Shown here piece after piece: positions 3,001 to 12,000 of a stretch of DNA of 64,000 nt (position 1 is the stretch's first letter; each line of letters begins with the position of its first letter). Source of the stretch: Styela clava (taxonomy: Eukaryota); NCBI RefSeq assembly GCF_964204865.1, contig NC_135264.1, positions 9,238,001 to 9,302,000 on the forward strand. The letters are read 5' to 3'. The position numbers are program-made.

Positions 3001-6000
3001 CAAGGGTGTCCAAAGCAAATCAAAAGTTTGAATTTATTTGTATTTATATTTGAAATTTTGAATTCTAGATTTATCTAGATTGTATCGTTTTAAGCAATTA
3101 AAAAGTGAAGAACCTTAGGATATCTTAGGATTTTACATATTTTCCCAGGGAGAGGAAAGTCGATCAGATGGCGCACAACTGCCATCGTATGGTTACCAGT
3201 TCATGTCTGGTATTGGATTAGTAGGTTACGTGAACCACCCTAAGGCAGCGAGGAGTCCAGCAATCCTCTCATACATAATTATTCCCTTCATGATTCAAAC
3301 CTGCGAACCCACATAGGGTAATCAGAAGTGTGATGGCAAGCTCTTCTCTAACGTTTAGCATGATGTGCCACACTGCCAAGCCGAACTTGCATTTTATTTT
3401 GAACAATGTTTAAAAAATAGAATCAGAGACTTGTTCAGAGTAGAGAAGTGAAAACACCCTTTAACAAAATAAATCCATACTGTGATTATTTCAAAGTGTG
3501 ATACAAGTAGAAAAATTAGTTTTTGAAGTTGTAGCATTTCTGGCCCCCGTTACATTATTATTAATTTAACACTATGAATAAAGTATTAAATTACAAGTTT
3601 TCGAAATTTGAAATATGGGTGAAATTTTTCATATTTTAGTCACAGATGTTCTCTCACTGGAGAAGATTTGAATAGGCAATGGACTGATCCAGATCCTGTT
3701 TTGTTTCCAACTATTTATCATACGAAAGGACTTTTACAATATCTATATTCTATTGGAAAAGGTGGTCTATTATTTTAATTCATTCTTGAGAAGAGAGAAA
3801 AGACATTTTTTCCAATTTTCAAATATGTCTAATCAATATCAAGGATACATATATTGTACGTCTAAATCAGAGGTCGGCAAACTGCAGCCTGCGGGCCGGA
3901 TCTGGATCTCAAACACTATAATCGGGCCCGCGACGCTTCACTGAATTATATTAACAAAACAACTGAATTGACAATTATATTTCTTACGTAACAGAATTTG
4001 TTTTGAGACACTAAATTATATTATAGCCTAACAAGTATATAATTTACAATCACTCGTTTAATGAGCCTATAAATTGATTATAATTATACTAAAGGCAACA
4101 AAACTTAAAAAAGTTGATAATGAATGCAAATGGTTTAATGTCGCAGAAAATATCCAAATGTCTCCGCGCGCTGCTTGAAATTTAACTGAAATCTGTGGGA
4201 AAAAATGTGATTCATTGGCCATTCCCTCGGTTTTTAACTTTCTAAAAAGATGTGCGGCCCACCAATGACTTGTAACCTTTAATTTTGGCCTGCGAACAAC
4301 AAAAGTTTGCCAACCTCTGATCTAAATTGTAAACCATTTTTGGTTTTAGCTCCCTTGGTATACTGCGACTACCACGGACATTCAAGACGTAAGAATGTAT
4401 TCATGTATGGATGTTCAAGACGGGAATCTGTCATTGCCGGAGAAAGTGATGTAATTCAAGGAGCTCCAGACGATACTGGGTATAAGGTATGTATTTTGTC
4501 TGTGAGATAATTTGACTCCCAAAAAAAATGTTTGGTTGTAGAACATTGGTTTCCAACTTTTTCAGACCCATGGACTCTTTCGATAATTTGTTTTTGAAAG
4601 GTTGACCTTTTTAAATATAATAGTCACAAGTCGTCTCTACTAGAGACATCTCCCATCAAAACTGTGCCCATAAGCGCTTTGTATTTATAGGGTGATAACA
4701 TGATGTGCCCTGTCCAATATGTTCAAAAAAACCGACTTGTTGTAAGACATAGAATTCCAAGATTCTAAACAACCATCATATATTCAGACAATTCCGAAGT
4801 TGCTCAATAAAATGGCTCCTGCTTTCTCAATGTCAAATTGTAGTTTTATTGTCGAGAAATGTAAAGAAAGTACAGCACGGGTTGTGGTTTGGAAAGAAAT
4901 GGGCGTTGCTAGGAGTTATACAATGGAAAGCACATATTGTGGCTGTGACCAGGGAAAATATAAGGTACTTGATTTCAGTTTTTAAAAAATCAAATATTAG
5001 ATATTTTGTGGATCGCAGATCTAATCTTTTTGAATAACATTTTGTTTTTCAGTAGTATTTTCATGTTTTTACCATCCTAAGCCGGTTGTTTTCAAATGGT
5101 GTTTACTAGTTGTTACAAATCTTTAGATGCGCAAATAATCAATTTATTTTGTTATATTCAGGCGGTCATCGAACCCTGTTTTCCATTTTGACCCTGCCTT
5201 AAATAAAAATTAAATTTTAGATTTTTAATTTTTTCATACCATTCTAAGATTCTGCCAGAGTCATAATTTTCAAATTGGTGGTGATAATCAAAGTCAGAAT
5301 TTCTGACAGAAACTCAAAAAGCATTAGGTTGGTTAAACACTCCCCACAGAAAATTGAAAAAGGCTTGCATATAGAATATGGTCTGGTGTTATTTACATGT
5401 CGCTGGTCATTGGATTGCCAATTGCAAATAGAGAGTCAGACATGCCTAGAACAAGTTTAAAGATGTTCATGTTCTTGTTGAACTTTGTTACTTCCCAATT
5501 AGTGAAAACGTCTGAAATACTCTCGACGTATTATACCGAAAAGAGTTCTCTGTAGGCCAAAACAAAATGAAATATTTTAAATTTGGGGGGGTATTTTTAT
5601 GCTCCCGCATTCTTCACGTGGTATTTTCACCCCTGTAATTGGTAACTAACCCTTATTGTTACAGAGTTGTCAGATTGGTACCTATGAACTTGAAGAAATG
5701 GGAATGATATTATGTGAATCATTATTACATTTGAAGAACAGAGAACGTGCAAGAAAATTGCCGCTTTATGACGGAATATTCTCCGAAGATGAGTATGTAG
5801 TTTTGTTGTTGTAGATTTTTTTGCTCGAAATATGAAATATTAGAACAGTGAATTTGCTGTTGAGCTTTTGAGAAGTTCATTTCCATAAATTTTAATAAGA
5901 TCAGGATGACATTTCAAGAAAACTCAAATTCTTTGAAAATACTGCTGGCATAAATTTACTATTGCTCTTAACAGTTAATGCCATTAGCAGTGACAGTGAG

Positions 6001-9000: not shown

Positions 9001-12000
9001 TTTTTCATGTTTGCTATCTTGTTGAATTCACATAATATCTCTATACTTCACACAATCATTTTTTATATATGAAAATATCAAAATGAACATTCCATACATA
9101 CTCATTTCACACATTATTCGGATCACACCTCACAGAGTGCAAATCAAATCAATCCAATGAATTCTTGATATATTCAAGTGCTATAAAAATGTGTGAATCA
9201 TGTAGCACTGATGTGCGCTAAGGTTAATGACATTAGCAGTTATAACAGGCGTATTTGAAGATTGTTTATGGCAACAGCTGAATACTTTGTTAGTGACATA
9301 GAAAAAAAGAGTAGGTGTTAAGGTAGTAGTACAAAAATGCTGGTTTGGATCTCAATGTCACATTCGGATTCAATACTCCTATTCTCTCATATTGTATTCA
9401 ATACAAAACCGAAATTTCAAAATGGCACCAAAGAAAGGAGGAAAGAAGGGAGCAAAGAAAGAACAAAAAGCAAACTCCAATGTATTCTCTATGTTCGACC
9501 AAACCCAAATCCAAGAATTTAAAGAAGCTTTCTCTATGATTGATGCCAACCGTGACGGTTTTATCGACAAAATTGACCTCAAGGATACTTATTCAGCTCT
9601 CGGAGTTCGAGACATCAAGATGGAAAAACTAGAAGCAATGGTATTGGAAGCACCAAGTGCTATTAATTTCACAGTTTTTTTAAACATGCTTGCCGATAAA
9701 CTTCAAGGTACTGATCCAGAAGATACTCTCGTACAAGCCTTCAAGATTCTCGATCCTGAAAATACTGGAGTAATCCACAAAGATGTTTTTTCGGAAATGT
9801 TCATGACCCAAGGAAAAAGATTTACAAAAGAAGAAATTGACCAAGTGCTTGAAATTGCACCAGTAGATGTCGCTGGTAATCTTGATTACAAAGCACTTTG
9901 CTACGTCATAACTCATGGACAAGAAGAAGAATAAAAACATTCCTCGTTTTCACAGTTATATTTCTGATACGGCCAAAATTTAGATTCATTAACATTTCAA
10001 TATCAGCAGTTTATGTTAGAAAAAATTAAATGTTTTTAATGTTTAAATATGTTTTTTCAATGAAATAAAGAATCCATAAATAGAACTGAGTTGGTTTGAT
10101 CGATTGGGTCCCTGCGGGATCAGCTACTTATCTTTCTTCTATTCTTTTGCGTCGATGGATCCATGAAATATAATGCATGGATTCTGTAGCAAGAGAAGAT
10201 AGCTTCTAAGTGATTTAAGAGACTTGCTGCACTAACAATATCAGATGTAACGTTACAACAAAATAGTTGTGTTATTACACAAAAAAATCCCCGAAATTTT
10301 CAAATTGTGATACCTCCTAAGAGAGCCAATATAAAAAACCTTTCATTATACCTTCATTAATTTTCTTTTGTAGTAATGTTTCATCTGACGGAAGGGTATA
10401 CATTGGTATTGTTGTTGATTGTTTCTATGAGGACGTCTGACTTTAATTTGAAGTTGAAACGTTCAGAATAAAATTTGTGAAAGTGTGACAGTGCCTGTTC
10501 GAACCATTCATTGAAGAATATTAGGAATTTCTTCTGTTTTGATATTAAAATGCATAAAATATTTTTTTAATTCTCAGCAATCTATACAATTCCATATCTG
10601 ACGTCTCATCTGGAGATTTCCAGTCTGTCGGTTCAGAAATAAAACAAGATAACTCTGGGTCTGAACGCATGGCCCCATGCCCCACCAACTCTGACGAAGA
10701 ATTCACCCCGGATGAAGCCGACTCAATAGGTAGCTTTGATGGAACGTCAGAACAGCCGTCCGCCTCGTACTCTAGAGACGAAGCATTAATGAAAAGCTAT
10801 CCTCACGAATTTTGGGACTATAATGAATTTTGTCGTGGTTTTGGTTTTGGACCTGAAGAAGAAGGTGATTATGACATTACACCACGTGCTAATGACCCTG
10901 CGTCGACGTCATCATTACCAAATGATGACGTTGTTCATCGTAACCATGGTGATTTTTTGATACGGTCGTCATATCAAATTTGCCCTGATACAGGTAGAGT
11001 TTTATATAACGATAATGATACAGTAGATACGACATTAGTTTCTATGATGGAGAGAAATAGTATGTATGAAAAACGTAAGCAACCGAAAAGTTAAAAATCA
11101 CAATGCAAACATTATCAAGTCCATACATCTGGTACGAATACCTAGCTAACTAATACCCTAGCCAGCATGGACCTGCAACTGAACGGATATGATTTGAGTT
11201 CACCATATGATTTGAGTTGTCTTATCGACTCACTTAGAATAAATTTGAGAATTTGTTCTTAAAAATAGATTGTATGGTGGGTGGGTAACTGTCTATCCAC
11301 CATTCTGCATTTTTTTACAATTAGGTCAAGGCAAAAGAATAACATATCATTTAGCAAGGTATATTATGGGTTTCTCTGATAGGGACTTTACATTACACAT
11401 GGAAGACAAGACTAACCTAACAAAGTCACTCAACATGTTTTCATTGGTATAATTTTTTTTGTGGCTTCCAATTTTTGGCAACGTCTAAGGATTTCAACCC
11501 TCCTGAGTTCCTGACCTGTTCTGTACAAACTATGTAATATATAATCCATTACAAAGTAATGCTTATTAAGAGAATTCCGGCACAATAGCTTTCAAATGTT
11601 ATTTTTCACTTTCGAATAATTGAGGTTTTCATTGACTCTGTTCATTTCACATTTCACTGATCTAAAGTGTTTTTCAACCTAACTCATTTCAAAGTGGTCT
11701 CGATCATAACACTAAGTTTTGCTCGCATGGGAATGTTCATGAATCGCCTGTTTTTTTCAACATTCGTTAAGTTATTAATTGGCACCCAGAGTCTCACCAA
11801 CAGTCAGGATGTACCAAATGGTAATTCTCGTACATTTCGTATATTTTTGTTAGTTCCAGATACTAATTCTCACTAAATGAATATCTTTGCAAAGCCCCCT
11901 AAATTAGCATTATATATAATTTGTTCATATCCATTCAAAAGGGATAATCAATGAGGCTGAAAATTTAATGATTAAAACTGAATCGTTCAAAAATTTCTCA

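What the first reader, a model, noticed from the sequence alone, without database searches (positions are those of the whole stretch)
5793..10577. Two intronless muscle RLC genes nested on the same strand inside the last intron of CCP1
Seen: the exon ending at 5792 joins in phase to a strong acceptor at 10577 and a 172-codon open terminal exon. Both complete RLC genes, with their own promoters and AATAAA signals, therefore lie inside a 4.8-kb intron in the host's orientation. Known: nested genes are more often antisense. Inference: full-length CCP1 mRNA must read through two poly(A) sites and two muscle promoters. This predicts mutually exclusive expression, or an intronic-polyadenylated CCP1 isoform that keeps the whole catalytic domain but lacks the acidic tail.
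Basis: partly seen in the sequence, partly recalled or inferred. Interest (0 to 1): 0.72.

Follow-up and report, generated by a model that had tools for sequence, protein, structure and literature searches.

The report
Two muscle light-chain genes inside CCP1's last intron
In this sea-squirt (Styela clava-like) sequence, two tandem single-exon muscle-type myosin light-chain genes sit in the same direction inside the last intron of the carboxypeptidase gene CCP1, which is a real but fairly ordinary example of a gene within a gene.

Summary
Seven GT-AG junctions in the window reproduce residues 777-1339 of a public Styela clava 'cytosolic carboxypeptidase 1-like' protein of 1339 aa. They include the join 5792^10578, where the split codon GA|C gives Asp. 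The last intron (5793-10577, 4785 nt) is 4.4 to 16 times longer than the other six. A tandem duplication, 5889-7664 and 7721-10329, fills all but 344 nt of it. Each unit carries one intact 170-codon, single-exon myosin regulatory light chain (RLC) gene on the + strand. Both copies share T-box-like and E-box motifs upstream and an AATAAA about 130 nt after the stop. The two proteins are identical (dN 0, dS 0.21), so both copies are under selection. The 172-residue acidic terminal exon is conserved from its first residues in three distant sequences, upstream of its first Met. It therefore needs an upstream exon. Same-strand, single-exon nested genes are common: about 37% of human nested genes lie on the host's strand. 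Synteny in other ascidians could not be checked. Verdict: real, a new member of a known kind, of modest interest.

The parts
254..486 (+). CCP1 exon. It is the first one in the window; the gene's 5' part lies upstream of the window. Corresponds to P0001 residues 777-854.
   Evidence: tblastn; acceptor ttttttccAG|GT read; donor CAA|GTAAGA. Shows 64-68% identity to named vertebrate CCP1 proteins.
1490..1655 (+). CCP1 exon
2752..2962 (+). CCP1 exon with a Peptidase_M14 match; contains HPGES
3640..3761 (+). CCP1 exon
4350..4486 (+). CCP1 exon
4788..4964 (+). CCP1 exon
5665..5792 (+). Penultimate CCP1 exon, at the end of the catalytic region. Donor TGA|GTATGT, phase 2.
5793..10577 (+). Last CCP1 intron, 4785 nt. 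It hosts the RLC tandem pair.
   Evidence: The other six introns are 301-1096 nt.
5889..7664 (+). Tandem duplication unit 1: distal block 5889-6118 and proximal block 6400-7664.
   Evidence: blastn. Identity to unit 2 is 74% over 234 nt (distal) and 87.8% over 1291 nt (proximal).
6451..6672 (+). Putative RLC1 promoter. T-box-like sites: TCACAC at 6451, AGGTGTGA on the minus strand at 6471-6478, GTGTGA at 6539, AGGTGT at 6647. E-box CAGCTG at 6610. TATAAA at 6664.
   Evidence: These are motifs only; function was not tested.
6756..7268 (+). RLC gene 1 CDS: single exon, 170 aa plus stop.
7395..7400 (+). RLC1 AATAAA, 127 nt after the stop, followed by a GT/T-rich stretch.
7721..10329 (+). Tandem duplication unit 2. 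About 850 extra nt lie within 7930-9056.
9107..9336 (+). Putative RLC2 promoter. TCACAC at 9107, AGGTGTGA on the minus strand at 9123-9130, TATAAA at 9182, GTGTGA at 9191, CAGCTG at 9275, AGGTGT at 9313. The site homologous to the copy 1 TATA reads TACAAA.
9422..9934 (+). RLC gene 2 CDS: single exon, 170 aa plus stop. The protein is identical to copy 1.
   Evidence: 19 nt differences, all at third codon positions; dN 0, dS 0.21.
10064..10069 (+). RLC2 AATAAA, 130 nt after the stop.
10578..11094 (+). Terminal CCP1 exon. Encodes an acidic tail (33 D/E against 14 K/R, pI 4.25). Stop at 11092-11094.
11238..11243 (+). AATAAA in CCP1's own 3' UTR.

Best explanation
Window 1-11.3 kb holds the 3' part of the Styela clava orthologue of CCP1/AGTPBP1. 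Its last intron has been filled by a tandemly duplicated, single-exon, sarcomeric-type myosin regulatory light chain gene in the host's orientation. Shown: the exon chain and the 5792^10578 join match a public protein model. The two RLC copies are intact and under purifying selection. The tail exon is a conserved coding exon that cannot start translation on its own. Inferred: each RLC copy is an independent short transcription unit of about 0.7 kb. It would be driven by a compact T-box plus E-box muscle promoter of the kind described for Ciona Myl.c, and ended at its own AATAAA. CCP1 would be transcribed through both units in cells where the RLC promoters are silent, and the whole 4.8 kb would be removed as one intron. 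The two internal poly(A) sites would mostly be ignored, because splicing of 5792 to 10578 outcompetes cleavage. In muscle cells, heavy RLC transcription is expected to interfere with the host. This would lower full-length CCP1 or favour truncated transcripts that lack the tail.
For:: searched among longer proteins, the tail exon hits 1 protein of 349 candidates. That hit is S. clava 'cytosolic carboxypeptidase 1-like', 1339 aa, at 99% identity; eight colinear exons with one GT-AG solution per junction. The join gives ...IFSED-D-NLYNS against the model's ...IFSEE-D-KLYNS; exon 232-486 is 64-68% identical to named vertebrate CCP1; 3 distant relatives of the tail (42-46% identity) among 1.84 billion representatives. 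They share invariant motifs (EFW.Y..C R.FG, Y.I..DTG.VL). Similarity starts at the acceptor, 29 residues before the exon's first Met, and there is no in-frame ATG between the upstream stop at 10555-10557 and that Met. One relative carries F/L/S-rich, polypyrimidine-like codons just upstream of the same point; introns are 1003, 1096, 677, 588, 301, 700 and 4785 nt; RLC dN is 0 and dS 0.21; the duplication units cover 4441 of the 4785 nt; the best RLC hit is S. clava at 98%. Among the 120 rows listed, the named vertebrate rows that carry an RLC gene name are MYL5/10/7/2-type, and none is MYL9/12; about 330 nt upstream of each ATG are 90% identical and share T-box-like and CAGCTG motifs; passages of bioRxiv 10.1101/2024.08.27.610013 say a 146-bp Myl.c upstream region with Tbx6-r.b sites and an E-box drives muscle expression in Ciona.
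Against: No RNA evidence was reachable. The public protein is a computed gene model, and its support is unknown to me. Two residues flanking the junction differ between the window and the model. The tail shows no significant similarity to the tails of 5 named vertebrate CCP1 proteins (best E 0.34 in a 6-sequence search). No other tunicate full-length CCP1 carrying this tail was found. The three tail relatives are short ORF-like records of unknown genomic context. Muscle expression of the RLC copies is inferred from homology and motifs only. AGGTGTGA occurs 3 times in the window against 1.39 expected, and 18 of 100 shuffles reach 3. The two promoter copies are duplicates, not independent. The intron shows no sign of protection: there are 4 5'ss-like hexamers on the sense strand against 7 antisense, and 13 AATAAA/ATTAAA on the sense strand against 8 antisense.
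Confidence: 0.78

Rival explanations
1. The tail exon 10578-11094 belongs to a separate gene, and the public CCP1 model is a chimera. CCP1 would really end just after 5792.
For: The tail has no Pfam family and no detectable similarity to vertebrate CCP1 tails. Its only other relatives are three short records. Phase compatibility alone has a 1 in 3 chance.
Against: Conservation starts at the acceptor, 29 residues upstream of the first Met, with no in-frame ATG after the upstream stop. The acceptor has 12 of 15 pyrimidines, as good as or better than 5 of the 6 other acceptors. The public model joins the exons. Vertebrate CCP1 proteins also carry an acidic tail of roughly 100 residues after the same helix. 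Without this exon the Styela protein would stop about 22 residues after that helix.
Confidence: 0.07
2. Most CCP1 transcripts end inside the intron. They would end either at an RLC poly(A) site or through the cryptic acceptor at 6045. The main product would then be tail-less, and the full-length form would be minor or tissue-restricted.
For: Two canonical AATAAA sites with GT/T-rich downstream sequence lie on the sense strand. A strong acceptor with 13 of 15 pyrimidines before the AG precedes position 6045. Joined to 5792 it would add Glu-Lys-stop. Sense-strand poly(A) hexamers are not depleted. Passages of PMC3192792 report exonization and cryptic polyadenylation upstream of tandem nested genes in human.
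Against: The tail exon is conserved at the protein level, so it must be translated often enough to be selected. The only public model found includes it.
Confidence: 0.2
3. The RLC copies are retroposed copies or decaying duplicates without a function of their own.
For: The CDS is single-exon, whereas Ciona Myl.c has an intron (passage: primers amplify an intronic region). The copy 2 site homologous to the copy 1 TATA box reads TACAAA.
Against: There are 0 nonsynonymous against 19 synonymous differences, dS 0.21. Both ORFs are intact. The upstream 330 nt and the 3' UTR are conserved. A 98% identical protein is in the public S. clava set. No A-run follows the poly(A) signal.
Confidence: 0.04

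Closest known systems
Same-strand (tandem) nested protein-coding genes inside host introns, as catalogued in human and Drosophila
   Same: The nested genes lie wholly inside one host intron, are single-exon, and have a tissue-specific character. The question of transcriptional interference and premature polyadenylation of the host is the same. [quoted passage not shown]
   Different: Here the nested unit is a tandem pair that makes up 4441 of the intron's 4785 nt. The host intron is the last one, so only a non-catalytic tail exon lies downstream.
Ciona larval-muscle myosin regulatory light chain genes (Mrlc2 and Mrlc3, the latter also called Myl.c)
   Same: The protein family is the same, with 75% identity to Ciona proteins. 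The window RLC falls in the tunicate clade that holds several near-identical copies in Ciona. T-box and E-box motifs lie close to the start, as described for Myl.c.
   Different: Ciona Myl.c has an intron, while the Styela CDS has none. I could not establish which Ciona protein in my tree is Myl.c. Whether the Ciona copies lie in CCP1 could not be checked.
Vertebrate CCP1/AGTPBP1 (Nna1)
   Same: The catalytic exons are 64-68% identical. The public model carries the same Pfam domains: PF00246, PF18027, PF25571. An acidic C-terminal tail follows the catalytic domain.
   Different: The tail sequence is not detectably homologous. It carries its own conserved motifs, which were found in only 3 other records.

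Membership tests
Myosin regulatory light chain (EF-hand, sarcomeric type) | EF-hand domain pair | tested here: met
   EF-hand_7 E 3.4e-12, EF-hand_6 E 1.1e-10 and EF-hand_1 E 5e-9. All are above the curated cut-offs, for both copies.
Myosin regulatory light chain (EF-hand, sarcomeric type) | Full-length similarity to named RLCs, closer to sarcomeric than to non-muscle/smooth paralogues | tested here: met
   98% to S. clava RLC and 75-82% to other tunicates. The vertebrate rows that carry an RLC gene name are MYL5/10/7/2 at 55-64%. No MYL9/12 row appears among the 120 listed; the tree is unrooted, and the window sits in a tunicate clade separated at 100/99 support.
Myosin regulatory light chain (EF-hand, sarcomeric type) | N-terminal basic stretch followed by the phosphorylatable Ser in the S-N-V-F-S-M-F motif (motif role recalled) | tested here: met
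   [12 protein letters not shown] is present and aligns with the same motif in the named RLCs printed. Phosphorylation itself was not tested.
Myosin regulatory light chain (EF-hand, sarcomeric type) | Expression in muscle and binding to the myosin heavy chain | not testable with these tools
   No expression data were reachable.
CCP1/AGTPBP1 (M14 cytosolic carboxypeptidase) | Peptidase_M14 catalytic domain with its N-terminal CCP domain | tested here: met
   exon 2751-2966 matches PF00246 (E 4e-5, above cut-off); the colinear public protein carries PF00246, PF18027 and PF25571.
CCP1/AGTPBP1 (M14 cytosolic carboxypeptidase) | Orthology to CCP1 rather than to other CCP paralogues | tested here: inconclusive
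   of the 120 rows listed, nearly all are named CCP1 and none carries another CCP paralogue's name. The rest are unnamed, 'hypothetical' or 'unnamed protein product', and one is named tubulin-glutamate carboxypeptidase. No tree with CCP2-6 was built.
Nested intronic gene (same strand) | The nested gene lies entirely between two exons that are joined in the host mRNA | tested here: met
   by colinearity with a public protein model. No RNA reads were seen.
Nested intronic gene (same strand) | The nested gene has its own promoter and poly(A) site | tested here: inconclusive
   Motifs are present and conserved between the copies. No transcript ends were seen.
Retrogene | Intronless copy of an intron-bearing parent | tested here: inconclusive
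   The CDS is single-exon. Ciona Myl.c has an intron. The parent gene and its orthology were not established.
Retrogene | Remnant of a poly(A) tract after the 3' end | tested here: not met
   no A-run follows either AATAAA.
Retrogene | Flanking target-site duplications | not tested
   The tandem duplication and the age of the copies (dS 0.21) make them unlikely to be recognisable.

The most novel reading that the evidence does not exclude
The nesting couples an enzyme to a substrate. Every tunicate RLC that I printed with an intact C-terminus, including these two copies, has the run GQEEE at or next to its C-terminus. [quoted passage not shown] If strong RLC transcription in muscle blocks or truncates host CCP1 transcription, muscle cells would automatically spare the RLC's glutamate tail from its own host gene's product.
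Probability: 0.04. Interest if true: 0.7.

Novelty: new member of a known kind. Interest (0 to 1): 0.27.

Why it matters
The locus offers a compact natural test case. A 4.8-kb terminal intron must be spliced across two apparently strong, same-strand poly(A) sites and two tissue-specific promoters, and only a non-catalytic tail exon is at stake. It sits in an animal group where reporter electroporation is routine. It could show how much a host gene tolerates sense-strand nested genes. It does not challenge current understanding, and the gene models are already implicit in the public annotation.

Tried and rejected
2. Search for other tunicate CCP1 proteins with exon 232-486. The 120 rows listed were P0001 plus vertebrates, so I could not compare tails among tunicates.
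3. Profile of the tail against 5 named vertebrate CCP1 proteins: nothing significant.
4. ESM Atlas look-alikes of the tail: no usable hit.
5. AlphaFold2 of the tail with a 4-row alignment: mean pLDDT 52, pTM 0.16. It looks mostly disordered, with a weak hairpin and helix at 130-160. I ran no fold search because the model is too poor.
6. Rfam and tRNA scans of the window: 0 hits each.
7. Test for a U1-site or poly(A)-site strand bias in the intron: none.
8. In-frame fusion of CCP1 to the RLC ORF through a cryptic acceptor: rejected. The only AG between the RLC1 upstream stop and its ATG (6689-6690) is out of frame and is not conserved in copy 2.
9. Literature: 0 papers for 'Styela clava' + 'nested gene'. 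0 papers for 'myosin regulatory light chain' + Ciona + intronless. Nothing relevant on ascidian CCP1 among the 10 rows listed.
10. Complex prediction of CCP1 with RLC was not run, since enzyme-substrate pairs are poor subjects for it.
11. The bacterial promoter/terminator scan was not used, as it is not applicable here.
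Full report
SOURCE AND SCOPE. The window has no N and is 34.9% G+C. It is ascidian, not human. The terminal-exon peptide matches a Styela clava protein at 99%, and the RLC matches a Styela clava protein at 98%.

THE HOST GENE. The 171 residues of the frame after the acceptor were searched among longer proteins. They hit 1 protein of 349 candidates: 'cytosolic carboxypeptidase 1-like', Styela clava, 1339 aa (P0001). tblastn of P0001 on the window gives eight colinear pieces covering residues 770-1339. 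For each of the seven junctions, a search over nearby GT and AG dinucleotides gave exactly one solution that keeps the residue count and the split codon of P0001. The exons are:
- 254-486 (acceptor read)
- 1490-1655
- 2752-2962
- 3640-3761
- 4350-4486
- 4788-4964
- 5665-5792
- 10578-11094

The last join is TGA|GTATGT ... tttttttaattctcAG|C, phase 2. It gives IFSED-D-NLYNS, where P0001 has IFSEE-D-KLYNS. That is the same length with two substitutions, which fits another haplotype. Exon 232-486 is 64-68% identical to named vertebrate CCP1 proteins. One search found 274 hits at E<=1e-10 among 293 candidates and listed 120, with no other tunicate among them. An M14 match falls in exon 2752-2962.

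IS THE TAIL EXON REALLY PART OF CCP1? The evidence for is as follows.
- A full scan of 1.84 billion representatives found 3 relatives at E<=0.001. They are 116-201 aa long and 42-46% identical. Columns are invariant in EFW.Y...CR.FG and Y.I..DTG.VL.
- Similarity begins at the acceptor, 29 residues before the exon's first Met. The window has no in-frame ATG between the upstream stop and that Met.
- One relative shows F/L/S-rich codons, typical of a polypyrimidine tract, just before the same point. The exon therefore needs an upstream partner.
- The tail is acidic: 33 D/E against 14 K/R, pI 4.25. Five named vertebrate CCP1 proteins also have an acidic tail after the same helix.

The evidence against is that the ascidian tail is not significantly similar to those vertebrate tails. 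The public model is a computed prediction, and I saw no RNA evidence for it. The context of the three relatives is unknown.

THE NESTED GENES. ORFs 6756-7268 and 9422-9934 on the + strand encode identical 170-aa EF-hand proteins. They differ at 19 of 513 nucleotides, all at third positions and all synonymous. dN is 0 and dS is 0.21. The two genes are the cores of a tandem duplication:
- 6400-7664 against 9056-10329: 87.8% over 1291 nt.
- 5889-6118 against 7721-7930: 74% over 234 nt.

The two units span 4441 of the intron's 4785 nt. The remaining 344 nt fall within the range of the other six introns, 301-1096 nt. The extra sequence of about 850 nt in unit 2 contains two stretches bounded by inverted repeats.

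Upstream of each ATG, about 330 nt are 90% identical. They share these motifs:
- TCACAC
- AGGTGTGA on the minus strand (3 sites in the window, 2 of them here; 1.39 expected; 18 of 100 shuffles reach 3)
- GTGTGA
- CAGCTG
- AGGTGT

Copy 1 has TATAAA at 6664, 92 nt before the ATG. Copy 2 reads TACAAA there, but it has TATAAA at 9182, where copy 1 reads TATGAA. No AG is conserved between the proximal TATA position and the ATG. Copy 2 has none at all in that stretch. A 5'-UTR intron or a trans-splice acceptor there is therefore unlikely. AATAAA follows the stop by 127 nt in copy 1 and 130 nt in copy 2, with GT/T-rich sequence after it.

WHAT KIND OF RLC. The best hits are tunicate proteins: Styela 98%, Clavelina 82%, Phallusia 80%, Ciona 75%. 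Among the 120 rows listed, the vertebrate rows that carry an RLC gene name are MYL5, MYL10, MYL7 or MYL2, and none is MYL9/12. I built a tree of 32 rows: the window protein plus 31 named rows chosen from the 120. The 89 rows left out were mostly further vertebrates and unnamed records. The tree puts the window protein in a tunicate group of 15 rows. That group is split at 100/99 support from a group holding the Halocynthia body-wall RLC, other tunicate RLCs and the vertebrate sarcomeric RLCs (unrooted).

In the review PMC6589888 (passages), Ciona Mrlc2 and Mrlc3 are tail-muscle genes and Mrlc4 is a body-wall gene. Tbx6-r, Mrf and CRE motifs mark muscle promoters. In bioRxiv 10.1101/2024.08.27.610013 (passages), a 146-bp upstream region of Myl.c with Tbx6-r.b sites and an E-box suffices for muscle expression, and Myl.c has an intron. 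I could not tie a particular Ciona protein in my tree to Myl.c. That preprint's tables are supplements that I could not see. 'Larval muscle' therefore remains an inference.

HOW IT LIKELY WORKS. Only the anatomy is shown. Everything else in this paragraph is inferred. There would be two short autonomous muscle transcription units. The host would be transcribed through them where they are silent. Splicing of 5792 to 10578 would outrun cleavage at the internal poly(A) sites. The host would suffer interference in muscle. The intron shows no compositional sign of protection, with 4 sense against 7 antisense 5'ss-like hexamers and 13 against 8 poly(A) hexamers. A strong cryptic acceptor, with 13 of 15 pyrimidines before its AG, precedes position 6045. 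Joined to 5792 it would add Glu-Lys-stop.

COMPARISON AND NOVELTY. [quoted passage not shown] It also reports exonization and cryptic polyadenylation of hosts upstream of tandem nested genes. This locus is thus a further member of a known kind. I found no paper describing it: one search returned 0 papers and one search returned 0 papers. Single-ORF genes are also frequent in this window, with a forkhead gene and two BTB-BACK-Kelch genes. Intronlessness is therefore not special here.

A SPECULATIVE LINK. Of the 22 named tunicate RLCs printed, 19 end in THGQEEE. Two Styela clade-B isoforms carry the same run followed by QQA, and one Phallusia record has a divergent, possibly mis-modelled C-terminus. 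Both window copies end in THGQEEE as well. [quoted passage not shown] A functional tie between host and guest is possible but unsupported, and the shared C-terminus is tunicate-wide rather than specific to this locus.

LEFT UNCHECKED.
- RNA junctions and transcript ends.
- Synteny in other ascidians.
- Supplementary tables of the cited papers.

Noticed in passing
window 6527-6537 vs 9180-9190, and 6662-6672 vs 9326-9336: The two RLC promoters each keep one perfect TATAAAA, but at different places. Copy 1 has it at the proximal site, where copy 2 reads TACAAAA. Copy 2 has it about 135 nt further upstream, where copy 1 reads TATGAAA. This could mean different start sites, or that one element is not a TATA box.
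   Followed up: partly
window 8287-8492 and 8488-8819: Two stretches bounded by inverted repeats lie in the extra sequence of duplication unit 2. One has 39-nt arms that are 79% complementary; the other has 20-nt arms that are 90% complementary. Part of 8198-8297 recurs at 21514-21612 (74%), and 8268-8300 recurs at 3134-3164. They look like small MITE-like insertions.
   Followed up: partly
window 7451-7514 and 10125-10181 vs 2355-2420 (minus strand): A short dispersed repeat (80-85% identity) lies just downstream of each RLC poly(A) site. It also occurs, inverted, in an upstream CCP1 intron.
   Followed up: no
window 6043-6051: A strong cryptic acceptor, ttttatttttctgtcAG, precedes position 6045. 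Joined to the 5792 donor it would add Glu-Lys-stop, giving a possible alternative terminal exon for a tail-less CCP1.
   Followed up: partly
window 10638-10643: An AATAAA hexamer lies inside the CCP1 tail coding exon. Two others overlap the RLC stop codons, at 7264 and 9930.
   Followed up: no
window 43344-44990 (+): A single open frame of 548 codons with a Forkhead domain (E 2e-37). It appears to be a single-exon Fox gene.
   Followed up: partly
window 53575-55638 (+) and 59516-61936 (-): Two single-ORF BTB-BACK-Kelch genes (687 and 806 codons stop to stop) are arranged tail to tail.
   Followed up: partly
RLC C-terminus, window 7254-7265 and 9920-9931; proteins printed: Of the 22 named tunicate RLCs printed, 19 end in THGQEEE. 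Two Styela clade-B isoforms add QQA after it, and one Phallusia record diverges. The nine vertebrate sarcomeric RLCs printed instead end in mixed acidic/Lys tails such as HGEEKD. Three C-terminal glutamates are the kind of end that CCP enzymes trim.
   Followed up: partly
tail exon, window 10780-10860 and 10960-11010: Two short motifs in the CCP1 tail (EFWDYNEFCRGFGF and YQICPDTGRVLY) are invariant or nearly so in three distant relatives. They match no Pfam family. The AlphaFold2 model is poor (mean pLDDT 52).
   Followed up: partly
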